Shown piece by piece: positions 1,544 through 64,000 of a stretch of 64,000 nt of DNA. Position 1 is the first letter of the stretch. Each line of letters begins with the position of its first letter. Under the pieces are notes generated by a model. It was not told the DNA's origin, did no database searches, and worked only from the letters and a program-made list of their open reading frames with translations. The DNA is taken from the NCBI GenBank assembly GCA_040954595.2, contig CM082584.2, forward strand, positions 7,583,919 through 7,647,918, written 5' to 3'. The DNA comes from Balanoglossus misakiensis. Its lineage: Eukaryota; Animalia; Hemichordata. Made by a program: the position numbers and the translations under genes.

Positions 1544-10528
<8,985 letters not shown>

Positions 10529-13707: not shown

Positions 13708-20799
<7,092 letters not shown>

Positions 20800-25323: not shown

Positions 25324-29188
<3,865 letters not shown>

Positions 29189-42400: not shown

Positions 42401-43679
42401 TGGTCATGTAGGGAAGCAAGTGACTCCAGTTCACCATTTATTCTCATGGTCAACTGAAGCGAATTCGTAGTTCTAAAAACGCCAAATGGCTGACAGTGGG
42501 ATTTCTTGATCTGAGTGTCCAGTCGTGACTGTCATTCGGATACAACTTCATACGGGAACTTTATTGTACGTGTTCTGGCAGTGAAAAAATTACACTGAGA
42601 CTCTGCCAGACATGGGCAGCAGCTTTCATTATTTATCCAGTCACCCACCTCACCACCCCCGGTGTGCAGGTTAAAAAAAAACACGTCAATGAAGGCAGCA
42701 GGACTAAACCGAAATGTGACATTGGCAGGGTTTTGAAGCAAGTCACCTTTCCCATGCTTTGTGCTTGATGCAACCGCGGCCACACGTCACCACGATAGCT
42801 ATGTGCTTGAATGATGTAACCCAGGCTATGTTAACACGGTGGTCTTCACAGCTGCTAGCTGCACAGCACATTCGGATGTTACTGACGCTGAGAAATGAGT
42901 GTCAAGGCCGCAAAATCCCTGTTCCTGAAAACAGTGACAAGAAATACTCTTTTCTTGTATCTTCCATTTTTTTTTCTCATTCTTTACTGCGTTTTTGTCG
43001 ACAGTGTGTGTTGGTCGGTGACAGTGAAGGACAAGTGGCCGTCTTCCAGCTCAGATGTATGCCATCTGTTGCAGAAAATCAGGTAATTCACCGGAGGTCT
43101 AGTGATCCAGTGCCTGTGACATCAATCAGACATTTGCAATCGGCCAGATCTCAGCTTACCTGTGGTCAAAAATTGCTGTCTTTGTAGTGTCAAGGCATTG
43201 CACTTTTTTCACATTTTCTTTTTCTGTCACAAAGTTTCAGAATGACCAAGTATCGCTTAAGCTTATGAACTTTCATTTCTTAACCCTTTCAACCATAGTT
43301 CCCTCTTTAGAGGGCCAACATTACCATAGAAAATAATGGGTTTGGACTGAACTGTGGTGGTGAAAGGGTTAAACATGGCAAAAATCGGCCATCTTGGAAT
43401 TGTCAACCATGAGATTTTCAACACTCACCTAGGTAGCAAAACCCTATTTAAGGTAGTAAGAATTCTGCCTGTTCCACAGTCCACACTGCACAGATCAGTT
43501 TTAAAAATTTGCACAGGCAAGCATGCCAAACCTCAAGCCTGCATTGCCGGAATGCATTCGATATCTGCAAGTTCACACAAAGTTTGGAAATATTTCTGTG
43601 TTAAAATTTTGTACAGGTTGAGTTGCTACAGAAGATTGTCGAGCAGAACTCTATGATCAACAATACCAAGAAGAAGTAA
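30420..43679 (+). CDS. DNAI4: Dynein axonemal intermediate chain 4 (WDR78), about 811 aa, 22 coding exons
   Basis: Exons 30420-30620, 30888-31010, 31262-31332, 31659-31765, 32104-32285, 32731-32838, 32977-33052, 33371-33502, 33631-33758, 34034-34136, 34262-34407, 34706-34792, 35085-35162, 35361-35434, 38344-38498, 38670-38802, 39134-39221, 39459-39587, 39781-39878, 40863-40938 (or 41135-41210), 43005-43082, 43617-43679 (2436 nt). Motifs: LEETETIWLLD, MERVVTHNIYQPKQ, DLLAVGYG, CCWSLKNPEFPER, SISSDGRVTQW, YLAGTEEGHIHKCSCSYNEQYL, FLSCSADWSIRLW. Confidence 0.95.
31464..31577. mobile_element. piggyBac-type MITE copy (diverged, with poly-G expansion)
   Basis: caccatggtttgatccaagcccatt ... ggacctctttagaggga ... 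gaaagagTTAA. Confidence 0.65.
34418..34511. mobile_element. piggyBac-type MITE copy
   Basis: TTAAccccttttcatcacc ... ggacctcgaaagagagaactggaggtgaaagg, starting about 11 nt after a DNAI4 donor site. Confidence 0.7.
36466..36489 (+). other. Candidate 24-nt microexon in DNAI4 intron 14
   Basis: T-rich tract, TGC, TAAAG acceptor and CA|GTAAGT donor. Inserts in frame (L-GEIRPTG-H). Confidence 0.5.
37983..38280. repeat. Two tandem copies of a ~150-bp palindromic (MITE-like) unit
   Basis: Units at about 37983-38132 and 38134-38280, each with arms ttcaacctagctgaggag ... ctccttagctaggttgaa. A short relative lies near 45415-45461. Confidence 0.8.
39940..40125. mobile_element. TcMar (Tc2-like) MITE with TA target duplication
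   Basis: TA-ccgttaaagtcattttataagacgcacc ... ctgcgacttataaagtgactttaacgg-TA, with internal gtgcgacttata subrepeats. Confidence 0.7.
40387..40473 (-). mobile_element. Degenerate tRNA-derived SINE-like segment
   Basis: Minus strand reads ...ggtcagttgg...gaatgcaa...ggtggtttaaaaccc...gccacca, with A-box-like and B-box-like motifs and a CCA-like end. It does not fold as an intact tRNA. Confidence 0.3.
41135..41210 (+). CDS. DNAI4: Alternative (duplicated, likely mutually exclusive) exon 20b of DNAI4
   Basis: 76 nt, same length and phases as exon 40863-40938. Encodes LDPIISVPPPLEQKLTTFMFSKCSD versus LDPILFSVPTPGVKYSSITFALNSD. Both end TCGGAC|GTAAGT. Confidence 0.8.
43280..43372. mobile_element. 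piggyBac-type MITE copy nested in an older repeat
   Basis: TTAA-ccctttcaacc ... ggtgaaaggg-TTAA. The flanks match the uninterrupted repeat at about 3587-3720. Confidence 0.85.
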
Positions 43680-45210: not shown

Positions 45211-46195
45211 TTAGCGTTTGATGGCTTCATCGTAGGTTGGAAGATCCATATCCACAGTTGATGGTGGAGGGTTCTGAACAGCTCCACCGGTCGTTGCCAC
45301 GCCTTCATTATCGGTAACACCAAACCTAAAGAGCAAACAGCATGAAAAGATTATCAAAGGCAGTGTGTGTGCTCTCCATTCTCCGTACATAGATTGCAGT
45401 GCGTAGATAATTCTAACCTAGCTAGGGGGTCTGGTGCAGCCAGTCCCCTTAGCCTAGGTTAGCTACAATTGACTTTCAAAATTCTTACCCTGCCACCGGG
45501 GGCGCTGTTGGAGCTGTAAATGGCTGTGAAGACTGTTCAGCAGGGGTTGTATACTGCGAAGGAGGATATTGTCCTGGTTGCTGTGGATACGGCTGTGGTG
45601 GGTACTGCCCTGGTTGCTGTGGATACGGCTGTGGTGGGTACTGCCCTGGTTGCTGTGGATACGGCTGTGGAGGGTACTGCCCTGGTTGCTGTGGAAACGC
45701 CTGTGGAGGGTACTGCCCTGGTTGCTGTGGAAACGCCTGTGGAGGGTATGGAGCAACTCCTGGCTGACCGGGTGGTGGTGGTGGTACCGCGCCAACTCCG
45801 ATTGTGGTTGACACCGGTGCCGGATGGCCCCCCACGACGACAGCATTCCCTGCACTTTGCTGGCTGCGGCAACACATGACAATGCCGACAACGCACAAAA
45901 CCACGCCAATCATAAGGATCATCGGCCCGAGAGCGAGCATTGGCATTCCGATGCTAACACCACTGGCCGTAATGCCGATTCCTACGAAGATCAGAAAAAA
46001 TGCAAACATCAAGCTGAACATGGCGCATTTAGCTCTGTTCGCCACCACGATTCCTGACCCCGCGCCGACGCCCGCACCACGGCGTCCATGGTGACGGGCG
46101 CGATGATGGTGGCGTATCATGTGGTGGTGATGAGCTCGATGATGGTGTCCACGATGAGCGCGGTGACCATGACGTCCTCTTTCTCCCTGTCCCAT
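45211..46195 (-). CDS. Uncharacterised membrane protein (about 273 aa): His/Arg-rich N-terminus, two TM helices, Pro/Gln/Tyr tandem repeats, C-terminal LPxY motif
   Basis: Exons 46195-45489 and 45325-45211 (822 nt), ending ...DMDLPTYDEAIKR*. 5'UTR acceptor near 46222, upstream donors near 46867/46888, TATA-like TATATA near 46934-46939. Confidence 0.8.
45570..45750 (-). repeat. Coding 30-bp tandem repeat (YPPQxx-PQQPGQ, about 5-6 units)
   Basis: Repeated gggtactgccctggttgctgtggatacggctgtgg units on the + strand. Confidence 0.9.
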
Positions 46196-47780
46196 TTATG
46201 CTCTTGGCTATTCTTTGAAGTCTGAAAAATTGAAAGTACGACCATTCACAGATAAAACATAGCTGGAAAGATGTGGCAAATGTCACTGTAAACGTTGCTG
46301 AAATTGTCTACTGTGTTTCATTAATATTTTATTCAAACGTAACTACAGCCCAAATTAGATCCAGATTTTAAATAAAAATATAATTTAGCTTTATAAATTT
46401 CAGCTTGTAATAACTTTCCAGAAACATCCACACTGTAATTCGCTAATACCGCACCTTCGCGAACTGGAAAGTCCAGACTGTTCGGTACAGTCGTATGAGG
46501 GCGCTCCGTTCCTCCACCACGAACAGCCAGGGCGTTAACCTGCAGACAAATGGATACACGCTAAAGGCTTGTTTATACCCATTTACAAATGGCCGTCCAT
46601 TTTCATGTCGCTACTGCCACACGGCGTGGGCCTGTGGGCCCACGGCGCCTGCACAACCTGGTCCAAGTCCCGATCAGTTTGGCCCGTTGCTAACCCCCGT
46701 CCCGACCACAGGTCGGTGCGACCTGTGGTCCCGACCATACTGACGGGAGACCCATGTGTGTGTGTGTGTGTGTGGGGGGGGGGGGGTGATACTACCACCG
46801 AAATCACAAATGTTGTCTTCGAACTCGTTAAGCTTATAGTCTAGAATCTAGGCGTCGTGATACTTACAGATCTGGGTCTTGTTCTTACGTGAGTTCGTTA
46901 CCCGAAATTTCCCAGACGATAGCTTCTACACTGTATATAGGGGCCTATTCGAGGTCTAGCTTGTCGGCGTACTCATTGACAGTGGAACAGAATGACCTTC
47001 AGCTCATAGGCACGTCACGCCCCAGAGGCAGAAGGTCATGAAGGTCGCGGTCCCATACAGTGGTGCCCACTTCCGGGAAAGCTGCTTGGAATTTTAATTA
47101 TACGCTTTTAATGACGTCAAAATGACCAATAGGCGTCAGTTTGCAATTTCTATATAAAGTAAACCCAAATTTCGTAGCAGAATGTAATAATTTTGGGCTT
47201 ATTTCCATGTCCTTCAATTAATACTCTTATATTGAAAACAAAATCTCGGTTGCGCTGAAATTTGAAAATGCCCCCGACTAGTTCAATGCGAATTAACTGT
47301 GCAGCACAATGACGATTTGGTCCGTAGATCTTCCGAATATCGACTGGCCTCACAATAGTTATAATGTGCCCGATGTGGGACGAACTAAACCGTAACGTCA
47401 AATAAAAGTAGATGATGTATTACTCTTTGAAGTTTTCATGAAATATTTTAAAAGGTTGACAAGAAAATACAACAGGTTACAGAGATTACTTGTGGTAGAA
47501 AACGCCGTCAGTTCTATAATTTTATTCCGTCACATTTGAGCTTGACTGCGCAGGATATTCAGCTCCAAGACATTTTTTATTAAAATTATAGCACTTTTAT
47601 GAAAGTGAACTCGACTTTGGGGTGGGGCTCCATCATACGTCTGTACGAAACATGAAAAATAGCCAAAGATTTCAAACATACATTTGCATATCTCTTGCCG
47701 GTCATTCCCCCAGACATTGAACGCCAGGTGCATATACTATTATATGGTGAAAGGTCGTAGAGGTGACGTAGGTAGGGAAA

Positions 47781-50700
47781 ATGGCCAGGAAGGAACGTGA
47801 ACAACCCGACGCTATGCCAGCGTTAAATCTTCCCGAGAAGTTTATCGAAGACGGCGTGGTTTTCCCCGGTTACATCAGGAAAGACCTAAAAGAATCCATC
47901 GAAAAGTTTGAGTGTAGGGACGACGACGTGTACGTTGTGACCTATCCAAAATCAGGTGAGTTGTTTTTGGTAGCGCATGTCCAGAGTTGGACGGGCCGGA
48001 ATAGGTTGAACCCCGACCCCACGTTCTAAAGATTATGCTGGACGGCCACGGTGGTCGTAATTTTTTTGATGAACGTAGTCCACATTCTCGTGCAAAGGAT
48101 AAATAGGCCCAACCCGTTTGAGGAAAATCTTCAAGATTTCAGTGTAACCTTGTAGTGACATGAATAATAGTTTCTCAGTCGTCTATAAATGTAGGTCATT
48201 CATGAGTATGTATTGTCAAGGGATCAAGGGTAAAGGTTATATACTAGTATAGGGATAGAGATCTCGTGTCATAGTTATTATCTTATGGAATGGGATTTTT
48301 AAGCGTGAGCTGACAAGAAAATACAACAGGTTACAGAGATTACTTGTGGTAGAAAACGCCGCCAGTTCTATAATCTTATTCCGTCGCATTTGAGCTTGAC
48401 TGCGGCAGGATATTAAGCTCCAAGATTTAAAGATACCATTGATGTTAAAATTATAGTATTTTTTATGAAAATCACACTCGACTTTGGGGTGGGGTCCATC
48501 ATACGTCTGTACGATACATGTAAAATAGCCAAAGATTTCAAACGTACATTTGCATATATCTCGTTGCCGGTCATTCCCCCAGACATTGAACGCCAGGTGT
48601 ATATACTAGTACATGTATATGGTGAAAGGTCGCAGACGTGGCGTAGGTAGTTATCCAGTGACCTACATGGTATAGACCCTCACACCAGTGGTTATATAAG
48701 CAGCTCTTAGGGCTTTAATTGGCGGGTACGAAGGTCCAGAGACCTCAAGCCTACACTTTGAATGCATTGGAAAGAAACTGACGAATGGATAAGGTATTCA
48801 GCAAAACTTTCCAGAAGAACTGGGTGAATAATAAATATTTGGTGTATTTTATTTCAGGCACAACCTGGGCCATTGAGATGGTGTCGCTTGTTCTCAACAA
48901 TGCCAACACTGAATACAACTTGAGTTTGGACCAGATGGCCAGAGTACCTGTACTGGAATTGCGCGTGGGCTTCGTACAAAGGTATGCATGCGCAATTAAC
49001 CCCTTTGTTAACCCAAACAAACAAACAAGATTCTTTTTGCATAGAAAACAGACGCAAGATGTTGGCTGTACGTCTGCAGACGTGGGTTCAACACACACGT
49101 ACCATTGTATCCTGACAGGTTGAGGTCATTCGTCGTGTTTATTTATCCAATATTCATGATATTGTCACGGATTCTGCCGCAACGCGTACGGGAACGGATG
49201 TGGTTTTACGTTTCAAGTGTGCTGTCTTCGGACGGGATGGCATTCCTGAATTCGATTTCGTCACCTCGCGTCATTAAGTCTCATCTACCGCGCCAGTTTT
49301 TCCCGAAGAAAGCGCTGAAGAAAAAATGCAAGGTGAGAATCGCGCTTGTTCGACTGAGATGCAGTCGCATTTTATTTTATACACCCAAACTCTGCTGGAC
49401 AAAACCACGTCGGTTTAAAGTTTGACGACTTTTTTGCCGAGTCATTGAGAAATGCTTGGAAGAAAGTTGCAGTACAAAGGAAGAAATTTCCCTCGACGTT
49501 TGCAAGTGGGCTATAGCTGTAGACGAGCAAGATGAATTTTGCCGAGGGGAAGAGACCTAGTTATAGTTTGTCTACATTCGACTGCTGTACTAGTATAGCT
49601 ATAGGCAGCTTGTTGTATTAGAATTTAGGAATGTCGTCGATCGCGTAGCCGGCTATTCCCACTTTGGATGTTCTAATATTGGATTGTTCTCGTCTCACAG
49701 ATTGTCTACGTTATAAGGAATCCAAAGGATACAATCGTGTCTTACTACTACTTCCACAAAAACAATTATTATCATGGATACTTTGACGGCACTTGGTCCA
49801 CATTCTTCAAAGCCTACCTCGATAAACAAGGTAGGCCTGTATATGTATCTGTTCGACTGCGCCTAAAGATTTTTCGATGAATGAAACCATACTTTCAGTA
49901 CACCATAAGAAATACATATGAAATTATTGGCATCATCTACGCACGTAAGGAATTCCCATAAGGTTCGCATACGGGCGAGCGCTATTCTTTGTAAATATAT
50001 GTGTTCGTGTTTGTCTTTGACGCAGTTCCTTATGGAGATTGGTTCGACCATGTATTAGGATGGTGGGAACACAGCGCAGATGAAAATGCATGTTTCCTGA
50101 AGTACGAGGAAATGAAAAAGGTAGTGCAAAGGTCTCACTCTCTCATGGACTTATGGCCAATTAAAGGCATATGGTTACCTATGCAAATATAACCACTGTT
50201 ACCATTGAAAGTTCATACATATCCAATCAGAGATGGTCAGCGCGCCACCACACGGTCATTCGAACACTTGCATAAGCCCATGTGATCTTATGAAAGCATA
50301 TGAAATTTAGAGGTGCCTGTACCTTCCCTTGAAGAATACAACTAAGACGCCTGTATCCTTCCCCAGAATCCCAGAGATGCTGTAAAGAAGTTGTGTACAT
50401 TCTTTGAGAAGACCTTATCGGAAGAGGAGACCCAAAAGATTCTTGAACATTGCAGTTTCCAGAACATGAAGAAAAACCCAACGGTAAACATGGACACCCA
50501 CAGACTAATCTTTGATTTGAAGAAGGGCGCGTTTATAAGGAAAGGTAATGGCGTGAGCTGTCACTGTTTATGTTAGCATATTTTAACGATCAGATACTCG
50601 AATCTTCTTATAACTTTCATAGCCAACCGGTGACACAATTGACTAAATGTGCGCACACCACGATACTGGTGTGCACGTTCTCTGAACGGGAGGCTGTATA

Positions 50701-50899
50701 CACGGATGCGACACATGGTTATTACAGCCCGTTTGGTCGACCGAATACATGTTCTGAAGAATTACTTGAAAATGTATCTTCTTTTATTTTAGGCGTTGTT
50801 GGCGATTGGGAGAACCACTTCACAGTTGCTGAGAATGCGGCGTTCGAGGAATTGTATGCCAAGAAGATGAAGGGTTCGGGACTCGCTCTTGAATGGTGA
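47781..50899 (+). CDS. Cytosolic-type sulfotransferase (SULT family), about 340 aa, 7 exons
   Basis: Exons 47781-47955, 48858-48981, 49119-49332, 49701-49830, 50026-50120, 50367-50544, 50793-50899 (1023 nt). 5'-PSB motif TYPKSGTTW, catalytic KSHLP, 3'-PB motif RNPKDTIVSYY, YGDWFDHV, YEEMK, RKGVVGDWENHFTVAEN. Confidence 0.95.
48311..48650 (+). repeat. Direct-repeat copy of the SULT promoter/5'UTR (47457-47775) inside SULT intron 1
   Basis: Both copies begin tgacaagaaaatacaacaggttacagagattacttgtggtagaaaacgcc and end ...cgtaggtag. They align closely with small indels. Confidence 0.9.
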
Positions 50900-52082: not shown

Positions 52083-55000
52083 CTATGCATACTCGCATAC
52101 ATAGTTGATTTCCAAGTACTTTTGAACACCGGGGCAAGGGTCACCGAAGATGCCATTGGAAGCAGCAATGTCGCAGGTGTCTTCTTCATCACACACCAGA
52201 GATATGAACTCGAAGCTGTCGTCGGTTCCACAGTTGGTGACAGAGCTCCATCCGCACACGTCGGTTGCCGTTCGACCGTAGTTTGAGGAGACGGTTCTTA
52301 TTTTGCCACCGGGGCATGAGAGCGTGGCGGTCTGGCCTTCACACGCAACAACTTGGCCGCCTGAAAGTGAGACGGAACGGACGGTGTTAGGCACACAGTA
52401 AATTGGCCACGCGACCACTATAGTATAAAATAGTAGGTCAATGGTAGAACACGGAGATTTCATGGATCATTGTAATGACACAAATGTTCCCTTGCCACAG
52501 CGTCATTCATTAGCCTGGTTTATGTGCAACAGGCTTCCAGAATGCCTAGTAGAGCAAGCAGGGAGGGGAAAAAACGCGGTACGTTGATGAACCCTTGCTA
52601 GCTCAGTTACCTTAATCATGATGATCTATACTTACCGCTGCCACTGTCCGGCAACTTGTCAAGGCACCTGTAGTAGACATCCAAGTACTTCTGAGTTCCG
52701 GGGCAGGGATCGCCGAAGACGTTGTACGAAGAAGCGACGCTGCAGGTCTCCTTGTCCTTGCAGCGGCTGGACACGACGCCGAGACTGCTTTCTGCCCTGC
52801 AGTCGGTGACCGACCCTTGTCCGCAGACCTCCCTTTCCGTGCGTCCAAAGTTGGCAGACACGACTTTTATCCGGCCGTCGGGGCATGACAGCGTGGCCGT
52901 CTGGTGTTCGCATGCGCGAACGTGTTCACCTGAAATGAGATGGGTGGTACATTAGCAGCATTCTGACGTAATTGCAGCGTAGTGTGCGGCATTCAAGAAC
53001 AGGGTGACCGATACAAGCCATCAAACATATACCAACGTTATATTTAATGAATTAACTTCTGCGAACATGATTGTTGGGAATAACAGCCAAGTCATTTATA
53101 CTAGTGTCAATATAATTTATTCATGTTGCAAGCGCGGAAGATGAAGGCATATCTAGCCAAAAGTCATTTCCTTGAAAATAATAAGTACCTACCACACACA
53201 CTAACATCTTGAACCATTTCGGGTTTTACTGGAGTGATGTCATAACTCCATGAGACAATGTCTCCACGTGTTGAGCCAGTGCATTCCGTTGCTAGGACGC
53301 TGATTTCTTCTGGGGCGAGAACCCTGGCCCACATGTTCAGGAAGGCCAGAGATCCGGTCACGTACATCCACTTGTATTTCCCAATTTGGAATTTGCCGCC
53401 CGCGGGAAGCTGGTAGCCGTCTGCCAGGCCTGCCCCATCTCCTATCTCTTCGCCATCCACATAGACACGCCAAACGCCCCCACTCGACGCCCAGGAAACG
53501 CAGGTGTGGCGCCAAGTGTCGTCGTCGACCCGGCTCTCGAATCGCGACATTTGCCCGTTGACTTCCAGTTCGCAGTCTGTCGCAAAGGCAAGGCGATACG
53601 CCGACCCGTCACTGTAGGAGAACCACCCGCCTCCATTGTGCGTCGTCTTCGACCAGAAGCAAGCGGTCAAGGCAGACATGAGCGGCATTGCGTTCATAGT
53701 ATTCATTTCCGTCGAACCATCGAATGCAACTAACTTTCCTTCATATCCAGATGGCTGCTCACCTGCAAGACAGAAACAGAAAAAAACAGAGAGTGAGAGA
53801 GTAACTGAGTGAGTGAGTGAGTGGCTGGCAAAACGAGAGGCAAGACGTTTTTATAATATTTAGTTTTAAAAAAATCGATTAGCTGAGAAAATCATGTTTA
53901 TCAACATTTTATTAGCTAAATATATTGAAACGATCGGATTGGCTACTGCAATCACCACCACCGCCATCACCACCAATTAATAAGGCCAAGTAACTCACCA
54001 CAAACTTCCTTGTCAGTTAAAAACTCTTCAGCCAGTGGCACGAGGTCGGTGTCCCAGGCAACAAGAGGACTACTGCTAGCAATTTGACCCTCGCATTCGG
54101 TTGCAAGGAAAGCAACATCAGCGTCTGGAAGAACGTCACCCCAGAAGTTGAACATGGTTATCGACCCCGAAATCGCCCACCATTTCCCCTTCCCCACACT
54201 CAGTCGACCGCCCGCTGACAGCGTGTAGCCTGTACCCACGCCGAGGCCGTTGCCGACCCGGACGCCATCTTGGAAGGCCTGCCACTCGCCATTGGTCGAT
54301 GCCCAGGTGACGCATGCGTGGTGCCAGTAGTCGTTGAGTATCCAGGCGTTGAATCCTGAGCTGCCGCCGTCTATCTCCAGTCCGAGTTTCGGCCACACAG
54401 CCATGACGTAGGTGCCGCGCGAGTGATAGGTCAACCATCCACCCGAGTTGTGCGCCCCTTTCATCCAAAAGCATGCGCTGAATGCCGTCATGCTTGGCAT
54501 TATGGGAACGGCATCCATGACTTTGTTGTCACCGACATTGGCAACTTTTCCCGCCAGACTGGGAGCTCGTGGTTCTGAAAACAAAGAAAAGTAAATGATG
54601 ATGAACAAAATAGCGTTAAACCACCCACTCTGTATCTGTTACGAACTTTCACAGACGTAATTTACGACCCTCTCCCCATTTGCCCAGCCCGTCCCTTGAA
54701 TTACTGCCCCCAAATATGTTTGGTTTCCCAAGATGACAAGGACGCATAAATCGCGGTTAAACTTACCACACACATTAACGTCTTGAATCTTGTCGGAGCT
54801 TACTGATGTAATGTCAGAATTCCACGACACAAGGTTTCCAAGTGTAGACCCAACGCAGTCACTTCCAAAGTTGACCATTTCTTCTGAGGTGAGAACTCTG
54901 TCCCACATATTGAGAAATGCCAACGACCCGGTCGCATACCACCACTTGTTCTTTCCAATCTGGAACTTCCCGCCAGCGGGCAATTGGTAACCAGTCGCCA

Positions 55001-58000
55001 GGCCCGACCCTGCACCAATCATGACGTCGTCAACCGTCACCTGCCAAGCGCCCTCGCTCGACGACCACGAAACGCAGGAGTGGTGCCAAAAGCCAGTGTT
55101 GATGTCATTCTCAAAGCTCGACGTTTGGGCGTTGATTTCTAGTTCACAGTCTGTCGTATAGGCAAGGTGGTACGCCGCGCCGTCACTGTAGGAGAACCAC
55201 CCACCCGAGTTGTGCGTCGTCTTCGACCAGAAACAAGCCGTCATGGCAGAGATTGGTGGCATCGTATTCGTGGTAGACATTTCAGTGGAGCCGTCCAAGA
55301 GAACGGATTTGTCTGCAAACTCTGTCGGTCGTTCAGCTGTAAAGCAAAAAAAGAAGAATATTGTGCATCGTGAGTGCCAGTTTTATTTTGCCAGTACCAA
55401 TTATTTAGCCGGTAGAACACATGCGATAGTTCACGATATGCTTTATATCAGAGTCCATGAACAAGCATGCAAATGCAGACACTGGGTCAGTAATAGGCCT
55501 ACTAAGTGTGGTTATTCAACGCCAGAAGGTCCATAGCAATACATAACAATGAGCACCACTGTCAGGTATTTGGATATACACTGTAGATGGAGTTGACCCT
55601 GATTCTCAAACAACATCTGGTTTATAGGGTTTCAATTTTTTTATCATGCGTTACCGTTATTTCATCGGGACAAAAAAACTCACCACAGACATGGTCTTCG
55701 CTCAAAAACTCTGCGGCCAGCGGTACAAGGTCGGAGTCCCAAGATACCACATTCCCGGGGAAGTTTCCGTTACAGTCGGCCGTCAGCGCGGTGACCTCGT
55801 CGTTCGGCAGAACTCTGTCCCAGAAGTTGAACATGGTCAGCGACGCAGCAATGGCCCACTGCTTCCCCTTCCCGACGCTCAGCAGCCCGCCGGGTGGGAA
55901 CTCGTAGCCGGTGGCCAAGTCCAGACCGTTTCCGATTTTGACACCGTCCATGAACACCTGCCACTCTCCGCTGCTCGACTGCCACGTGATGCACACGTGA
56001 CGCCAGTAGCCGTCGAGAACCCAGGCGTCGAATCCCGAGCCTTTGCCGTCGATCTCCATCTCCAGTTTGGGCCACACCGCCATGACGTACGTCCCGCGCG
56101 AGGAGTACGTGAACCACCCGCCGGAGTTGTGCGTTCCTCTGGCCCAGAGGCAGCCGCTGAATTCAGTCAGTCTCGGTACCGTGGATACAGCGTCCAGGAT
56201 TTTGTTGTCGCCGACGTGGGCAATCCTCCCGCGAAGACCGGACTTTCGTGGCTCTGAAACCATTCAATAGAAACGAAATGTCAGATTGTGAACAGAGTAG
56301 ATTTACACTGAAACATCGCCCACGTTAAAGTAAAAGTCGACACGCCATTTAAACGGAACAATTTGGACATGTCACGATGATTATACACCAGCCAGATCAG
56401 GACATCACTTCTTGGTACATGTATATTGGAAATTTTGTTGCAAAGATCAGACGGGGGCATTCTGATGTCCCGTATAAACCTGCCGCATTGATTAACTACC
56501 ACAGAAATTTTTGCTTCTAAAGATTACAACTCACCACAGGTATCTGAAGGGAATACAGGATGATGGTTTGGTATCTGGCTCTGCACACTAAATTCTCTCA
56601 TGCTCCAAGAGACAACATCGCCCTCTGTCGATCCCGTGCAGTCGCTGGCCAGAGACAGCACCTCGCCGGCCGTCAGTACTCGACTCCAAATGTTGAAATT
56701 GGTGATGTCGGCTTCTATGCCGAGGCTCCACGGGTGCCCGGCGTTGTTCTGCCCGCGCCCCAGACTCAGCAGTCCGCTGCTCGGAATGACGTGACCTTTG
56801 GCCAGGCCGACCCCCGACGAAATGAGAACGCCGTCTCTGAAGAACTGCCAGGCGCCGTTGCCGCTGCTCCAGGTGACGGTGATCGAGTGCCAGGCGCCGT
56901 CGTTCATCGCGAAGACGCTCGACGCTGGTCCCGCAGTGCCGTGGACGTACAGCGCCATGTTGTTGAGGTTTCTGACGGCCAATTCGTCGCCTGTCGCATT
57001 CGTTGAGTAGGAAAATAGGGAATCTACGTGCCCCCCTGTTACACGAATCCATACGCTGACGGTCACGTCGGTCAATTGTACTTTTAAGGGTTCGATTAGT
57101 AAAACAGCAACAGATTTATTGGCGGCGACCATTTGACCGTTGAGGGTAGCTCTCTTTATTTCTGTAAAGCGATTAAAAAAACCAAATAATCAAATATTAG
57201 GAAAGTTACACGACTGATATGATTAATCTTTTTTCCCAGTTCTGTTAAATGTTGAAATGACACCACCGAAATTCGCCACGACGCTATCTGGCAAACAAAC
57301 TTAACGGTGCCGTTGAAGACAAGTTTGATTGAGTTCCATACAAGAAATGATATGAATATACGTCAATAGTCTCATCGACGATGAAAAACAAACAAACAAA
57401 CAATCAAACAAATGGACATTGCAGTTCTTACCGCGTTGGCAAATAAATCCGCGATGATTATCACAGCTGGCGTCATCAAACGTGAAATCTTTCGATCTGA
57501 AATGTGAAAAAAATTGGTATTACAACACCGATCATCGAGAACAACACGCCCGCCCGTTTGCCCTGCATGCTTGCATTTGTAGATCTGACATCGAGAAAGT
57601 TTCCCTATTCCCTATATACGACCCAATCGCTTCCCCCATCGTGTAAACGACCGTCTCTTCAACCATGTTAAAATAAGTTTCTTTATCAACTGATAACGAT
57701 TAAAATTTATACAATGGCCCTGTTTCCTATGAACTGGACTGATGGAAACAATCGATGGTCAGTACATTCCTTATGCACATCCCTAGACTAGCCCAGTAGT
57801 CGCTTGGGGAATTTTAAATCTCAATACTATTTGTGTTTTCGGTGTTTTTTTGTCTTAATAAATAATTGCAATACTTTTTGCGCGCATGCTTGCCTTAAGC
57901 GTGTTTTTGGTAGTGAGGCGAGTTTCGACTTTGGGACTGAGCTTGTGGTTTCGGGTATAGCGTCGACCAAGCTATGGGCCTACGCGTTCCCTACACATAA

Positions 58001-61000
58001 TGAAGCCCATAGACTTGGAGCAAGTCTAGCACAGCCCCAAAAGACTCACCTGAGCATGAGACACTCCTGGTTTCCCCCGTGGTTGTTTGGCTCGCCAGAA
58101 TCCCAGTTGAAGTACTCCATTTCTTCCCCGTTGACTGTCTGCCAGACGTTTCTCCCTTTGGGATAGCGTCTGCCGTCGAAGTGGAACGACGGGTGGTTGT
58201 CCAGACCCAGGCTCTTCAAATACCCGACTAAGTATTCGTGCGTCTCGCGGTTCAGTATCTTCGCCAGGGACATGCCGTGACCGTGGCAAATTTCCTTGGC
58301 TGTCTCCATGTCCGTCTTCATTATGAACGGTGTGTACGCAAAATCGCTGGGAGGGCGCCCTGTAACACGAAAGTAGCAGATGTTTTTCGGTCGGTCAGCA
58401 GACTACATTTTCCAGGTCATTTTTTACTGGTGCGAGGTAGTTTAAGTTTATCACCGACGCAGATATTTAAAAACAACTGAAAACGTCTTGAAATGGCTTT
58501 TGTCTAAATCCATAACTACTAGTAATTTTACTATACTTACCGTATCCGTTTTCTTGGTGGCAATTCTCTTCATCTACGCAAACGCACTTTCTACTAATGC
58601 ATCTCTGGGGGGAGAAAACAACACAAATGATTTTTATGTTGCTATGTTTTCAAAACAGTGATTTGATCCAGTTGGCGGCATATTTTTGATTGTCTGTTAT
58701 TAAATGATACTAAAACATACAGAGGGGCAAAATTCGACTTTCAGGTAATAATAACACGTTATACATAATCGCTAAAGCGTTGCATACCTTTCCCGGGCCA
58801 CATGCGGTCCCTTCCAAGGACCAATCCCAGAATGGACAAGTACCGTCGTCAAAACCACAATACATGAGACATTCGGCTCCCTCTTTGTAGTTCTGCAGAA
58901 ATTGTCAAAGAAAGTATTTTTCTTTTGCGTTAGGTGTTGGAAATTCGCCGGTGCGCGCGTGTGTGCATGCCAAACGTGCGAATTTTGTACAAGAAAGCCA
59001 AAACGACAACCTCCAAATATGCAAATTACGGCATGACACGTAAACACGTTTCTGTTCGTGTACGCCGGTTCCCATGCACTCATTACCTGCACCAGTTGCG
59101 TTTTCCAGGGGCACTCTCCGTAGCTGTGCGTAAGGCCGATGGCTTTGCATTGCTGGTCGGGCGGGAAAACTTGCCCTGCCAAGACACGCTTGCCTTCGAA
59201 TCCCGGCCAGGGCCATGTCGTCACCTCGCTCGGTTTATCAAGAACGCATCGGGGAGGATCGCTGGAACATATACAAGCGTTTAGAAAGATTCAGTCATTT
59301 CCCAAAATAATGTGTGCGTACTGTGTATACGAGTATTTTGAGATCACCGCACATGAGCGCTGGTTCGCTGTCGCTGTGAAAGACACCCCCCTGTCCAAAG
59401 AAACAACGGGCCTTTATCATTTGCGTTGAACGTAAATAGAGCATACTAGTACTTTGCCATACCACGGCACGATATACCATATACAGCACATATACCGGTA
59501 ACTATGTCTTTGGATATATAAGTAAATTGGTGTGAACGATTTCACCGTGATTTGGAACGGCCTTCACACGAGTTTACAACACAAATTACCTGAAGTAATT
59601 TCGAAGCTCTTCTCGGTTACATTGCGTTACTTTTATAAACCCGCCAGACATGTATCCAAGCTCTGTTGATCCGGGACATTTTTCAGAATCGTGATTCATA
59701 CCAAGCCTGCGAAAAGATAAAAACAACAAAACAAATTAATAGAATACTCGTGGTGATATTATACACATTTTCTTAAAACATGTTTAGATTTGATAAGACA
59801 CCTGAATATGTCACGCATCATAGACTTACGAGTGTCCTATTTCGTGGCCCAAGCACCTCACTGCTTTGTAGGTTGGACAGAGGGCGGCACCCCCGCACAT
59901 TGCTGCTATTTGACCAAGCCCGCCAACATCGTCGTTATCCCACTTTGTGCTGCAAGGAAGGAAGGTATAAACAATAAGTAAATATTGCAAATTTCATAAT
60001 GGGTTATTGATTCAAATAAACTGCTTCCAGTCCAGGTTCTGAACATAAGCTTTCGACTGGGATTATCACCATCACCATCGGCAAAAACGCATACCAGATG
60101 TTTATAGCAACAACAACAACAATGGGTTTTTAGTGACCCAAGAGTGTTACTTACTCAGTAAAAAAGAACGAATAGTCGAAGTGCAGAGGACTGTTCTCGT
60201 CGTCCACATTGATCTTCCTGGCCCACTGCGTGAAAAGGCTCAGTCGATCGTATACGTCTGGCGCAACGTCCAGGAAAGGTTGACACTGCAGATGGAACGG
60301 GAAAGACGTGAATAAGTACAAGATAAGTGATCAGCATAACGAAATTAGCATATTCCTCTTTACACCGTACAGCTGCGTTTCCACAGCGATGAATCCGCAT
60401 GCCCTCGTCCCCTTGTCTGAAGAACGGCTCGAATCAAGTCAGAAAAACCAATCATCGTGCAATTGTGACAAAACGGTGGGGGGGGGGATCAAATTTGAAT
60501 CGTGGGGAGATATTTACCGTGTCTTGGTCGACGAGGATGAGTCGCACCAGTCGGAGGTTCAGGTCAATCTCTTCCATGGACGGATGTTTGTAAGTTGTCG
60601 CAACCTGTTGTACACAGACAATGAAGCATTTAGCAAGCTCTTTGACAACATACAGACCACTTTGACTGTCACACCGCGCCATTCGTCTCGAACAGAAAGT
60701 TCATCAAACAGAGGCCATGACCCAGAGCAAACTTAACAGCGTGTTGGGGCAGTTAGCATTATTTAAACTATTTTGTACCCGTCTCACATTCTAACAATTG
60801 TAATGCGCCCTCAACCCCAGCTCCATAATACACCCATCTTACCAGGTTCATCATAGCCAATGTGAGCGGCACGGTGTCGTTCCCCCACTTCTCCATAGCG
60901 GCTTTGTCGAGGGCGACCATCACTTCCGGGTAAAGTGGCTGCGTCACACGCTTCGGTTCGCCGTCTCGAAGTGTGCCGCTGGATGAAGCTTTCTTGACCG

Positions 61001-62718
61001 CGACGCCTGGTAGAACGAATAATGCCATGTAAGTTGAGTGGAATTAAATCCGACGGGAATAATTGTAAATTGCCCCGGGCAAAGTAAGCGTATCCTAGTC
61101 CATTATTTTTCATCAGAATAAGCACACGCGTCAAATATGTTTAGTAAGTAGACTTAGTCTGAACTTTAAAAGTTTGTGTCATAATTGTCATCGTCATCAT
61201 CATCATCACCATCATCATCATCATCGTCATCGTCATCATCATCGTCATCATCATCACCATCGAACTAACCTGCAGGTGGCGACAGGCTCTTAAACACTGA
61301 CGCGTCAAAGTTGTCGTCAAGCTTGAAAGCTATGTGAGGTGTCTCGCCATTATCCGTGCTGCGGACGGAACGCACTGAACGCCTATGCTCTTCTCGGATT
61401 GGTTGCAGAAAAAGGGTGTAGTCACCAATAAGCCAACCACGCTGTAAGCGAAAATAGCGAGTATTGATTATGGCTAAATTAGGGAGTGTCGATCGTATTA
61501 GTAGATAAATATATAGGGAGTGTCGATCATAGCTTAAATAGCCGAAATAGGGCGTGTCGGACATAACTAACGAGGACACGAGGTAATGCTTCTTTGGGCC
61601 AATCCCAATCATTGTAACGGCGAAATAGAGCCATAAAGAAGTGAATTCTTGTAAGTAACTGACAAGCTCTGTGGTTGGCCACTGGAGCACGTCACTTCAT
61701 ATGTGGCCCAATTAACGTCATGAATAGTCGTATTTACCACGTCATTGCCGTCACAGGCTTTCAACGCCACGAGCGAACTTTCGACGTCCGGCAGGTAGCC
61801 GCTGAGAAAGCACGTCTTATCCTGGTCCACTGGAAACGCATCCCAACGTATGCCGCCGTCGCCGCAGTACTCAACGAATGGCGCGTCGAAAAAATCTGAC
61901 GATGAATAAAGAAAATGTTCAAATATAAATTTCAGTGGTGGGCTTGGTAGTTCAAAACAAAGTCGATGAAATAGAATTGTAGTCTTCAGACGTAATCGCT
62001 GAAAGCATGCGAGTTTAATACTAATGCAAATTCGGAGTCAGTGTGCGGAAGGGGAGTGCATGGTGATTATTGTCCCATGCTGAAGAAAACAGCATAGGCC
62101 TGTACACAATAATGCTCAAGCCTTACCTCCACTACGCTTCAAACGGAGATTGAATGTGTCGCCGAACGCTTCAATTGTCATGTGACTTGACTCCGACTCG
62201 TCCAACACGCCGTCTCTTCTCCATCGGTGACTGGTTCTCGGGTAAACGATGTCGTATTTCGTGGGAACTTGGATGGGAAGAGAGAAAAAGTCGTGTGTTA
62301 TACTCAACTAACAGACGATTCCTTGGCGTTGTCGGTATTTAACGAAACAGTAAATACGAATTAGACGATTGCTTACGTTGAGGACAAAAATGTTGTATTG
62401 TTCTTACCAGAGCTGTGACCACTCCGTTCTGCGTATTCCTTAACAACGTGATTTGGAAGTATCTGTAAAAAAAGGACAAAAGGAGCATACATGGTGATTT
62501 TTCGGCTACTCTGTGACGAGCACTGGTATTACAAATCATCATTTGGTTTACTGCGGAACACAGCAATAAGTACATCATAAGTCACGAGGCTGAAAAATAC
62601 GGCAGGCATCGCCTTGCGAGAGAGCGGATCCACGAACAGACAATTTGGCCTGAAACTTTACCTGCGATTCGGTCAGTTGTATCGCCAGCAAGACGAGTAA
62701 GCCCAACGGGAACACCAT
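52083..62718 (-). CDS. Secreted mosaic ADAMTS-like M12B metalloprotease: signal peptide, prodomain, Zn protease, disintegrin-like Cys-rich domain, C-type lectin, 5 pentraxin-like domains, 2 SUEL lectin domains (about 1,801 aa, 22 exons)
   Basis: Exons 62718-62662, 62462-62408, 62267-62127, 61895-61738, 61441-61270, 61006-60843, 60604-60518, 60285-60155, 59949-59830, 59706-59590, 59261-59087, 58892-58788, 58604-58541, 58359-58050, 57496-57432, 57161-56535, 56253-55684, 55336-54767, 54574-53999, 53762-53193, 52929-52636, 52360-52083. They sum to 5406 nt and stay open throughout. Motifs: HEIGHSLGMNHD with Met-turn GYMS; GQVFPPDQQC and EGTACGPGKRC; WDSGEPNNHGGNQEC; HxCV[ST]W; ANFGR/SNYGR and FGDPCPGxQKYL. 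Confidence 0.9.
61188..61261. repeat. Imperfect (CAT/CGT/CAC)n microsatellite
   Basis: Intronic trinucleotide run next to the donor at 61269. Confidence 0.9.
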
Positions 62719-62774
62719 CTTCCCCCAAACTTTTCCCCCGGACTCAAGTGAGCCTCTTTGCTCCAGGTAGGCTG

Positions 62775-62782
62775 TATATATA
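62775..62782 (-). promoter_or_regulatory. TATA box of the mosaic protease gene
   Basis: TATATATA about 60 bp upstream of the ATG at 62718. Confidence 0.55.
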
Positions 62783-64000
62783 GCCAAGTGTTGAATAGCT
62801 CCACAGGTGACAAACGACAAGTTTTGAATGGTTCCATGGGTGACGTGCGATCGATGCAAATTATCCGGCGCAGTCATTGACGTTGTTAATTGCGACAGTG
62901 CGTTGAAATGCTAAAACTGAATTTCGGAGGGAGATTTCATTTCAAAACAACATGTGAAAAAAATCCCTGGGGAACATTGTTATGTAAATTTTCTATTCAC
63001 AAGCCATTGTTCTAATTACATGTATTATTCAATCACACACTTTAGTAATTCTCAAACTGTCCATTTTGACATACCAATCTTCGGCCGCGTTCCCATTGGC
63101 CAAATTCAAACTGTAACTCATTCTCGCACATCTGGAGAAATTTTGGCGCCGCATTTGTGGCATTTTTACTTAGCATATATAATTATAGACATTCCGAGGA
63201 CAAACGAAGGCTCATTATTATCGTTGATGAGTCCGTGGTAAGCTTACTATAGTGTCTTTTCATGGTATTCGACTCAAAAGTTAATTTGATTCACAAGTCA
63301 CCCTGTCGACGATGGGAGGCTCAATATCGTCGATTTAGATGTAAGCTTCTCTTTTCATGTGTTAATGTTACCGCTTGTTACGTACTACAGGCGAGAATAC
63401 ACTGCATAAACTGTGTGTGTTTATGTTTCCAAAGCTTTCAAACTCCGATGTGTAGAATAGCTTGCAAAATACTTTAGTTTTGCAACTCCTTTGCAAAGGG
63501 ACCGATGGTCTTGAGATGCAATAAACAATACTATTGGTGGTGGAGGCCCATTACCGTTGATTCTCTCTCGTTAGCTTAATTAATTAACGGGCCACTGATG
63601 ATCGCTGATTTCAAGTCAGCCAGCCAGTGAACCAATCACATTTACAATAGCCATTCAAGACGAAGTCATTGTTAACAGTGATTGATTGTCTCGGTTGTTT
63701 TGCGCTGTCTTCTTCAAGATTACTTTCTGACATTATTTCCAAAGTAATGCCAAACAAAGTTGCTGAAAGCTGGCCACAAATTCTGATCTCGGCAAGAGCT
63801 TGCTGTGTACAATGTGACGTCAATTTGTTTATTTATTTGTACAGCTTTGAATTATATGACATATGTCCATAAATACTGCCACAAAACACGTATTTAGATA
63901 CGGCGTATGTTGGCCTGACCTGATTTTAGGTAAATGACGTCAATTTGAACTGGGTCACCTCCGACTCAACCCAGGAGTCTCAGGTCATCATGCTCAGTCT

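What the first reader, a model, noticed from the sequence alone, without database searches (positions are those of the whole stretch)
52083..62718. Lectin-armed ADAMTS-like protease: catalytic head fused to eight glycan/pattern-recognition modules of three different folds
Seen in sequence: one continuous 22-exon frame encodes a signal peptide, an M12B-type prodomain, an intact metzincin site (HEIGHSLGMNHD plus Met-turn), and an ADAMTS-type disintegrin-like domain. It continues with one C-type lectin, five pentraxin-like domains and two SUEL domains, with no TM segment. Established: canonical ADAMTS proteases follow the disintegrin-like domain with a TSP1 repeat, a Cys-rich domain and a spacer; none of these is present here. 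C-type lectins, pentraxins and SUEL/rhamnose-binding lectins are each innate-immune or egg-coat glycan sensors. Inference: this is a secreted 'recognise-and-cut' effector that targets proteolysis to glycosylated surfaces such as microbes, mucus or egg coat. I do not recognise the architecture from any named family, but I cannot search to confirm it is new.
Basis: partly seen in the sequence, partly recalled or inferred. Interest (0 to 1): 0.88.

Follow-up and report, generated by a model that had tools for sequence, protein, structure and literature searches.

The report
Lectin-tailed ADAMTS-type proteases of acorn worms
This gene, likely from an acorn worm, is predicted to splice into a secreted zinc protease whose usual matrix-binding tail is replaced by a chain of lectin-type domains; unnamed relatives in three acorn worm species share the protease head (five of six also the lectin-plus-pentraxin core), so it is a small undescribed protease family that likely docks on sugar-coated surfaces before cutting.

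Summary
Observation confirmed: 22 minus-strand exons, 21 of 21 introns GT-AG, one 1801-aa frame: signal peptide, M12B prodomain, intact HEIGHSLGMNHD and Met-turn, ADAMTS-type disintegrin-like domain, 1 C-type lectin, 5 pentraxin (PTX), 2 SUEL; no TSP1 repeat, no transmembrane helix. It is not a one-off: six unnamed database proteins from Ptychodera, Saccoglossus and Glandiceps share the head (28-55% identity), five also the lectin and PTX, with varied tails (kringle, PAN). That supports one gene through PTX5; the SUEL join is only inferred. The 'eight glycan sensors' reading is overstated: the C-type lectin keeps EPN and SUEL2 keeps 6 of 6 sugar residues, but SUEL1 keeps 4 of 6 and all five PTX domains lack the pentraxin calcium site. 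It is not a canonical ADAMTS; TSP-less heads (MIG-17, Sona) and lectin-tailed astacins are known. No paper on the family was found in five searches, and the scan had not noted it before. Side finding: all four Ptychodera paralogues lack the 'invariant' Met-turn methionine. Verdict: new variant of a known kind; target, tissue and activity untested. Interest 0.5.

The parts
62775..62782 (-). TATA-like box about 60 nt upstream of the ATG
   Evidence: sequence; function inferred
62662..62718 (-). Exon 1, aa 1-19, predicted signal peptide
   Evidence: highest hydropathy window 1.62
62408..62462 (-). Exon 2, prodomain start
   Evidence: aligned to relatives
62127..62267 (-). Exon 3, M12B prodomain
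   Evidence: Pfam PF01562 E 0.023, below cut-off; 50% to P0156
61738..61895 (-). Exon 4, prodomain with C95, C113, C132
   Evidence: 70% to P0156
61270..61441 (-). Exon 5, prodomain with furin-type RSVR-SVR site (158-164)
60843..61006 (-). Exon 6, end of prodomain (dibasic KR 214-215) and start of catalytic domain (E222, D228, likely calcium ligands)
60518..60604 (-). Exon 7, catalytic domain
   Evidence: 79% to P0156
60155..60285 (-). Exon 8, catalytic domain (C279, HFDY)
59830..59949 (-). Exon 9, catalytic domain; HEIGH at 59846-59832
59590..59706 (-). Exon 10, third zinc His367 (59693-59691) and Met-turn M381 (59651-59649)
59087..59261 (-). Exon 11, end of catalytic domain (C406, D409) and start of ADAMTS-type disintegrin-like domain
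58788..58892 (-). Exon 12, disintegrin-like domain
   Evidence: ADAMTS_CR_2 in relatives
58541..58604 (-). Exon 13, end of disintegrin-like domain
   Evidence: four Cys conserved in 5 of 6 relatives, the sixth model ends earlier
58050..58359 (-). Exon 14, C-type lectin part 1, EPN 605-607
   Evidence: Pfam PF00059 7e-8; mannose-binding protein C among PDB hits
57432..57496 (-). Exon 15, C-type lectin part 2, FDD 625-627 at the WND position
56535..57161 (-). Exon 16, PTX1; calcium loop degenerate
55684..56253 (-). Exon 17, PTX2 (type A); calcium loop deleted
54767..55336 (-). Exon 18, PTX3 (type B); calcium loop deleted; pentraxin fold predicted
53999..54574 (-). Exon 19, PTX4 (type A, duplicate of PTX2)
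   Evidence: 60% aa, 73% DNA
53193..53762 (-). Exon 20, PTX5 (type B, duplicate of PTX3)
   Evidence: 74% DNA; tree
52636..52929 (-). Exon 21, SUEL1; 4 of 6 CSL3 primary-site residues
52083..52360 (-). Exon 22, SUEL2; 6 of 6 CSL3 primary-site residues; stop codon
51308..51313 (-). First polyadenylation-type hexamer after the stop (about 770 nt downstream)
   Evidence: use inferred

Best explanation
The locus is predicted to encode one secreted, likely active ADAMTS-type zinc protease of an unnamed acorn worm family, in which a lectin tail replaces the thrombospondin-based ancillary domain and likely tethers the enzyme to glycoprotein-coated surfaces (most likely mucus or mucus-trapped microbes) where it would cut nearby protein backbones. 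Steps: (1) secretion as a zymogen (signal peptide, prodomain, no membrane anchor: seen in sequence); (2) activation by a convertase at RSVR-SVR 158-164 or KR 214-215 (inferred); (3) docking through the calcium-dependent C-type lectin (EPN, mannose/GlcNAc/fucose type by recalled rule) next to the head and SUEL2 (rhamnose/galactose type) at the far end (motifs shown, binding inferred); (4) the five PTX domains, lacking the calcium site, act as a rigid extension arm and possibly as calcium-independent binders through new Lys/Trp loops (inferred, weakest step); (5) cleavage by the HExxH...H/Met-turn site (residues shown, activity untested). The tail grew by exon shuffling: an ancestral PTX1-PTX2 pair became PTX1-A-B-A-B and two SUEL exons were added.
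For: One frame, 21 of 21 canonical introns; donors and acceptors of introns 13, 15, 20 rank in the top 1.4% of sampled GT/AG sites. Same head in six database proteins of three acorn worm species, five with lectin and PTX in one chain. P0016 aligns in one piece over residues 68-1039. PTX1 groups with relatives' first PTX (SH-aLRT 92) and PTX2-5 with the second PTX of three Ptychodera paralogues (99) (quick tree). Catalytic residues intact. EPN kept in 4 of 5 relatives while the rest of the tail turns over. SUEL2 6 of 6 residues. ADAMTS ancillary domains set localisation and substrate choice (PMC4448532, passages). Acorn worm pharynx secretes abundant mucins and glycoproteins (PMC4729200, passages). 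Fast divergence (43-55% head identity among close relatives), three paralogues on a contig of the same length with two near-adjacent accessions fit a surface or defence role.
Against: All five PTX domains lack the calcium ligands of CRP and SUEL1 keeps only 4 of 6 residues, so at most two or three of eight modules have a recognisable sugar site. Four of five tailed relatives carry two kringles, which are protein binders by recalled knowledge. No relative has SUEL domains (0 of 6). The Glandiceps relative is annotated as head-only (513 aa). Intron 20 holds a read-through stop after 9 codons and two polyadenylation-type hexamers. Nothing in the sequence identifies tissue or substrate.
Confidence: 0.5

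Rival explanations
1. A tissue-remodelling matrix protease that works like MIG-17 or Sona; the tail is a set of protein or glycosaminoglycan exosites (laminin-G-like use of PTX) acting on the animal's own matrix in development, metamorphosis or regeneration.
For: Head is ADAMTS-type; nearest Atlas clusters are reprolysin/ADAMTS_CR_2 proteins of 237-331 aa with no TSP_1 among their listed families; PTX domains lack the pattern-recognition calcium site and have Lys/Trp loops; kringles in relatives.
Against: Tail turnover and paralogue duplication are faster than expected (recalled) for a developmental matrix enzyme; EPN and SUEL2 sugar sites are kept.
Confidence: 0.27
2. The 22-exon model is not the main product: the locus yields a shorter protein (head only, or ending after PTX5) and the SUEL exons are skipped or belong to a separate small lectin gene.
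For: P0156 ends exactly at the position of the exon 12 donor; 0 of 6 relatives carry SUEL; intron 20 has an early read-through stop and AATAAA/ATTAAA hexamers; exons 16-21 are all phase 1-1 and can be skipped in frame.
Against: Intron 13 is 181 nt with no polyadenylation hexamer; five relatives join head, lectin and PTX; intron 20 and 21 splice sites are strong (top 0.0-2.9%); exon 21 has no own signal peptide and only 263 nt precede it.
Confidence: 0.12
3. A fertilisation or hatching enzyme aimed at the egg coat by its SUEL and C-type lectin domains.
For: SUEL domains resemble egg rhamnose-binding lectins (best PDB hits 5h4s and CSL3); fast divergence.
Against: SUEL is absent from all six relatives, so it is not the family's defining function; SUEL domains are common in many non-egg proteins.
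Confidence: 0.07
4. A lectin carrier whose protease head is weak or inactive, as the family is relaxing its active site.
For: Met-turn Met absent from the aligned column in 5 of 6 relatives; one has Gly to Thr in the zinc motif; Met to His destabilised protease C (PMC1266349, passages).
Against: This gene keeps all three His, Glu, Gly, Asp and Met; catalytic Glu and three His are kept in 7 of 7; MMP-2 tolerates Met replacement (same paper).
Confidence: 0.04

Closest known systems
Canonical ADAMTS (ADAMTS-1, -4, -5, -13)
   Same: Signal, prodomain, HExxHxxGxxHD, Met at +14, disintegrin-like domain; best solved relatives over catalytic plus disintegrin-like span (E 3e-14 for P0156; 1e-22 for the family profile); secreted, no membrane segment.
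   Different: No central TSP1 repeat, Cys-rich domain or spacer; 7 catalytic-domain Cys in a different pattern; tail is lectin/PTX/SUEL.
TSP-less ADAMTS-like proteases: C. elegans MIG-17, Drosophila Sona; tick salivary metalloproteases
   Same: Sona is described with four domains (pro, protease, disintegrin-like, cysteine-rich) and as closest to MIG-17 (PMC4989167, passages); short reprolysin clusters, mostly arthropod, are the nearest Atlas hits (0.95-0.92).
   Different: They have no lectin or PTX tail; common descent with the acorn worm family was not tested.
Multidomain astacins (M12A) with CLEC, PTX, kringle, PAN tails
   Same: Secreted metzincin fused to the same kinds of module (PMC9848320, figure legend).
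   Different: Different catalytic family; the legend lists the domains, the exact orders are in a figure I could not see.
PAPP-A (pappalysin)
   Same: Metzincin carrying a laminin-G/pentraxin-like domain (Foldseek hit of the PTX3 model to PAPP-A, E 4e-7).
   Different: M43 family, single N-terminal module (recalled), different tail.
Snake venom P-III metalloproteinases with C-type lectin-like chains (RVV-X type; recalled)
   Same: M12B protease guided by a C-type lectin-like exosite.
   Different: Lectin chains are separate genes attached by disulfide (recalled); true disintegrin domain; only weak catalytic-domain matches (E 3e-7 or worse). The database name given to P0156 is a best-hit label and misleads.
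Unnamed acorn worm proteins XP_070538200, XP_070537454, XP_070538197, XP_070579976, XP_077869472, XP_077977467
   Same: Same head; five also C-type lectin and PTX in the same order.
   Different: Four have two kringles before PTX1; one adds PAN and a second lectin; none has five PTX or SUEL; four lack the Met-turn Met altogether.

Membership tests
Metzincin / M12B reprolysin | HExxHxxGxxHD zinc motif | tested here: met
   H357-E358-H361-G364-H367-D368
Metzincin / M12B reprolysin | Met-turn 14-20 residues after third His | tested here: met
   M381 at +14 (criterion PMC4448532)
Metzincin / M12B reprolysin | Reprolysin profile match | tested here: met
   Indirect: PF01421 above cut-off in P0009, P0016, P0043, which match the gene's catalytic domain at E 7e-70 to 3e-19; single short exons gave no hit
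Metzincin / M12B reprolysin | Zinc-dependent proteolysis | not testable with these tools
   needs assay
ADAMTS | Signal peptide, prodomain with convertase site, no transmembrane segment | tested here: met
ADAMTS | ADAMTS-type disintegrin-like domain after the catalytic domain | tested here: met
   alignments of P0156 to ADAMTS-5 and -1 run through it; ADAMTS_CR_2 in P0016 and P0155
ADAMTS | Central TSP1 repeat | tested here: not met
   no Pfam hit, no motif in protein or introns, intron 13 only 181 nt
ADAMTS | Cys-rich domain and spacer | tested here: not met
   lectin follows directly
ADAMTS | Placement inside the ADAMTS clade in a tree | not tested
   no ADAMTS sequences were fetched as usable records
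ADAM / snake venom metalloproteinase | True disintegrin domain; EGF and membrane segment (ADAM) | tested here: not met
   matches confined to the catalytic domain; no membrane segment
MIG-17/Sona-type TSP-less ADAMTS-like | ADAMTS head without TSP repeats | tested here: met
MIG-17/Sona-type TSP-less ADAMTS-like | Common ancestry with MIG-17/Sona | not tested
   Atlas look-alike only
Pentraxin pattern-recognition domain | Pentraxin fold | tested here: met
   PTX3 model pLDDT 92.6, best Foldseek hits pentraxins, TM 0.75-0.80; Pfam for all five
Pentraxin pattern-recognition domain | Two-calcium site (CRP Asp60, Asn61, Glu138, Asp140, Glu147, Gln150) | tested here: not met
   PTX1 GRGQN for GQEQD; PTX2-5 nine-residue deletion; ligands from PMC12173917; mapping of CRP numbers onto the neuronal pentraxin alignment is recalled
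Sugar-binding C-type lectin | EPN or QPD plus WND-type calcium site 2 | tested here: inconclusive
   EPN-N..E present, FDD in place of WND; motif rule recalled
SUEL / rhamnose-binding lectin | Eight Cys and CSL3 primary-site residues Glu7, Tyr27, Asn74, Asp79, Gly83, Lys86 (SUEL2) | tested here: met
   6 of 6
SUEL / rhamnose-binding lectin | Same residues (SUEL1) | tested here: inconclusive
   4 of 6; Tyr to Phe, Asn to Tyr

The most novel reading that the evidence does not exclude
Acorn worms have their own family of modular 'recognise-and-cut' ADAMTS-type proteases: a fixed protease plus mannose-type lectin core carries an exon-shuffled, lineage-specific recognition tail, so that pattern recognition and proteolysis sit in one chain. 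In this member, pentraxin folds have traded the calcium site for Lys/Trp loops that bind a new ligand class (such as sialylated or sulfated mucus glycans), a prodomain-to-catalytic disulfide (C95-C279) keeps the prodomain attached after processing, and the Ptychodera paralogues are natural active metzincins without the Met-turn methionine.
Probability: 0.2. Interest if true: 0.78.

Novelty: new variant of a known kind. Interest (0 to 1): 0.5.

Why it matters
It shows the ADAMTS head-plus-ancillary design rebuilt with a wholly different, glycan-oriented ancillary tail in the sister lineage of echinoderms, kept since the split of Saccoglossus and Ptychodera (about 370 million years, PMC4729200). 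If the tail does direct cutting, it is an animal counterpart of lectin-guided proteases and a handle on how mucus-feeding deuterostomes manage mucus and microbes. The family also offers natural tests of two textbook constants: the Met-turn methionine (absent in four paralogues that keep His-Glu-His-His) and the pentraxin calcium site.

Tried and rejected
No whole genome is held, so paralogues in this genome and synteny could not be examined. No RNA holder was listed for 53000-62800; this says nothing about expression. Word-based search with exon 17 among longer proteins: 0 of 1056 candidates scored. PDB sequence search with exon 11 alone: no hit. Structure prediction of the head (P0156, 7-row alignment) failed, pLDDT 31, and was not used; the disulfide pattern and lectin position are therefore unmodelled. 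The careful PTX tree did not finish; the quick tree is cited, with a long-branch warning for PTX1 with P0043. Hidden TSP1 or kringle exons: rejected (no motif in introns; kringle tblastn best E 0.13). P0156 as this very gene: rejected (53% identity). 'Snake venom-like' label: rejected. Earlier scan notes: nothing on this protein in four look-ups. Paper searches for the family and the two text supplements of PMC4729200 (two of four listed files held) found no description; one search returned nothing.
Full report
Observation. I defined exon borders from the minus-strand sequence and spliced them in a script. Twenty-two exons from 62718 to 52083 give 5406 nt and 1801 residues with a single terminal stop; 21 of 21 introns are GT-AG and 123-553 nt. 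Coding GC is 0.55 against 0.29-0.46 in introns. Pfam on 20 of 22 exons finds one C-type lectin, five pentraxin/laminin-G3 and two SUEL domains, and a sub-threshold M12B propeptide; the small catalytic exons give no hit singly. No TSP1 motif occurs in the protein or introns and no membrane-length hydrophobic stretch follows the signal peptide.

Relatives. A profile of PTX2-5 searched against 1.84 billion representatives gave 2345 hits at E 0.001; I examined the best 150. Three of the 150 carry the same head: P0009 and P0016 from Ptychodera flava and P0043 from Saccoglossus kowalevskii, all 'uncharacterized'. Word-based searches added P0154 and P0155 (P. flava) and P0156 (Glandiceps talaboti); the sixth hit, P0157, matches only 4% of the query and is unrelated. 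Architectures: P0009, P0154, P0155 head-lectin-2 kringle-2 PTX (P0155 is a model that starts inside the catalytic domain); P0043 head-lectin-2 kringle-PTX-PAN-lectin; P0016 head-lectin-2 PTX; P0156 head only, ending at the position of our exon 12 donor. Head identities to the gene are 55, 51, 49, 48, 43 and 28%. The window is therefore likely an acorn worm other than these three species; two earlier scan notes on the same genome guessed the same. These searches are not sensitive: one search did not return canonical ADAMTS, so absence outside hemichordates is weakly shown.

One gene or two. Single BLASTP alignments cross the protease-lectin junction with P0154, P0009, P0043 and P0155, and P0016 aligns in one piece over residues 68-1039, from prodomain to the end of PTX2. 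In a quick tree of 72 PTX domains from 24 chosen proteins (of 300 domains extracted), PTX1 groups with the relatives' first PTX (SH-aLRT 92) and PTX2-5 with the second PTX of three Ptychodera paralogues (99); PTX2 pairs with PTX4 (99) and PTX3 with PTX5 (98), matching 73% and 74% DNA identity with no similarity extending through the introns. The tail thus grew from a PTX1-PTX2 pair by duplication of an A-B unit. I put one transcript through exon 20 at about 0.93. The SUEL exons are less secure (about 0.8): 0 of 6 relatives have them, and intron 20 has a read-through stop after nine codons and two polyadenylation-type hexamers; against that, both splice sites are strong, phases match, and only 263 nt separate the exons.

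What the head is. With P0156 as stand-in, the ten best PDB matches are ADAMTS-5, -1, -13 and -4 (E 3e-14 to 4e-10), the best three running through the disintegrin-like domain; snake venom enzymes and ADAMs match the catalytic domain only (E 3e-7 or worse). The family profile agrees. The gene has the ADAMTS consensus HEXXHXBGXXHD and a Met at +14, inside the 14-20 range given in PMC4448532 (passages). That review defines ADAMTS by a central TSP1 repeat, Cys-rich domain and spacer, which are absent, so this works like an ADAMTS head but is not a canonical member. TSP-less heads are known: Sona has four domains and is closest to MIG-17 (PMC4989167, passages), and the nearest Atlas clusters are short, mostly arthropod reprolysins. 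A fold prediction of the head failed.

What the tail can bind. The C-type lectin has EPN-N..E and FDD at the WND position; EPN is kept in 4 of 5 relatives and mannose-binding protein C is among the PDB hits; the EPN-mannose rule is recalled. SUEL2 keeps all six primary-site residues listed for CSL3 in PMC3269628 (passages); SUEL1 keeps four. The PTX domains fold as pentraxins (PTX3 model pLDDT 92.6; best Foldseek hits Limulus SAP-like and neuronal pentraxins) but lack the calcium site: PTX1 reads GRGQN where neuronal pentraxins read GQEQD, and PTX2-5 delete nine residues of that loop and replace it by Lys- and Trp-rich motifs (GKGKQW, GKNKWW, GKGKWW, GKYKWM) (CRP ligands from PMC12173917, passage). 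So two, perhaps three, of the eight modules have a recognisable sugar site.

Mechanism. Most likely (0.5): a secreted zymogen is processed at a basic site, docks by its lectin and SUEL2 on glycoprotein-coated surfaces, and cuts proteins there, the PTX chain serving as arm and possibly as a calcium-independent binder. Mucus or trapped microbes are the favoured target because acorn worms feed and protect themselves with abundant mucins (PMC4729200, passages) and the family shows fast divergence, duplication and tail turnover. Every functional step is inferred. Rivals: own-matrix remodelling (0.27), shorter or split products (0.12), egg-coat enzyme (0.07), inactive head (0.04).

Two side findings. 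First, the Met-turn column reads Met in 2 of 7 sequences (this gene, P0156), His in P0009 and P0154, Gln in P0155, Pro in P0016 and Val in P0043; the four Ptychodera proteins have no Met within 25 residues of the third His, while P0043 has one at +18 that could serve. All seven keep three His and the Glu. The Met is called invariant in metzincins, with Met-to-His unstable in protease C but Leu or Ser tolerated in MMP-2 (PMC1266349, passages). These are predicted proteins, not checked against reads. Second, 5 of 6 complete heads have three prodomain and seven catalytic-domain Cys; P0016 has two and eight and lacks both C95 and C279. This single joint loss hints at a C95-C279 bond that would hold the prodomain after processing; a cysteine-switch role for C95 is the alternative.

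Novelty. Five searches of the held library for this architecture or family and a term search of two held supplements of PMC4729200 found no description; PMC10381214 (passages) counts echinoderm ADAMTS genes without lectin-tailed forms. The library lacks most subscription papers, and two listed supplement files were not held. Metzincins with C-type lectin, PTX, kringle and PAN tails are known among astacins (PMC9848320, figure legend; the figure itself not seen), and PAPP-A has a related module. PMC11266112 was read as passages for the Met-turn in inactive ADAMs. The principle is therefore known; the M12B version, its acorn worm family and this five-PTX, two-SUEL member appear undescribed. Verdict: new variant of a known kind, interest 0.5.

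Noticed in passing
P0009, P0154, P0155, P0016 (Ptychodera flava), P0043 (Saccoglossus); column of window 59651-59649: Four Ptychodera paralogues keep His-Glu-His-His but have no Met-turn methionine (His, His, Gln, Pro); the Saccoglossus protein has Val there with a Met four residues later.
   Followed up: partly
window 61895-61738 (C95) and 60285-60283 (C279): An extra prodomain Cys and an extra catalytic-domain Cys are both present in 5 of 6 complete heads and both absent in P0016: possible prodomain-catalytic disulfide.
   Followed up: partly
P0156 (XP_077977467, Glandiceps talaboti): Annotated as snake-venom-like and ends three residues past the equivalent of the exon 12 donor; likely a truncated model of a longer lectin-tailed gene, or a real head-only form.
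   Followed up: partly
P0001-P0030, P0041, P0045 (one search hits): Acorn worms and lancelets hold many unnamed tandem-pentraxin mosaics (up to 9 PTX; with F5/8, WSC, fibrinogen C, lectin, SUEL, peroxidase), a large pool of shuffled PTX exons.
   Followed up: no
window 61270-61180, minus strand (intron 5): A GAT/GAC/GGT trinucleotide repeat of about 90 nt directly after the exon 5 donor.
   Followed up: no
window 47772-50899, plus strand: Spliced sulfotransferase gene (Sulfotransfer_1 E 7e-15 on one exon) convergent with the protease gene.
   Followed up: partly
window 17303-17866, minus strand: Short collagen repeat plus C1q domain: a secreted C1q-type protein 34 kb downstream.
   Followed up: partly
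window 2999-10528, plus strand: Exons resembling a MAST-type Ser/Thr kinase with PDZ domain (PDZ_6 E 1e-7; family name by recall).
   Followed up: partly
window 38261-43187, plus strand: WD40 exons resembling an axonemal dynein intermediate chain (weak WD40 hit; identity by recall).
   Followed up: no
window 45485-46195, minus strand: 236-codon frame with two hydrophobic segments, a Cys cluster and a tandem PGQYPPQ-type repeat tail; no Pfam hit.
   Followed up: partly
window 25324-26010, minus strand: 228-codon frame with a long His run, likely an exon of a transcription regulator; no Pfam hit.
   Followed up: partly
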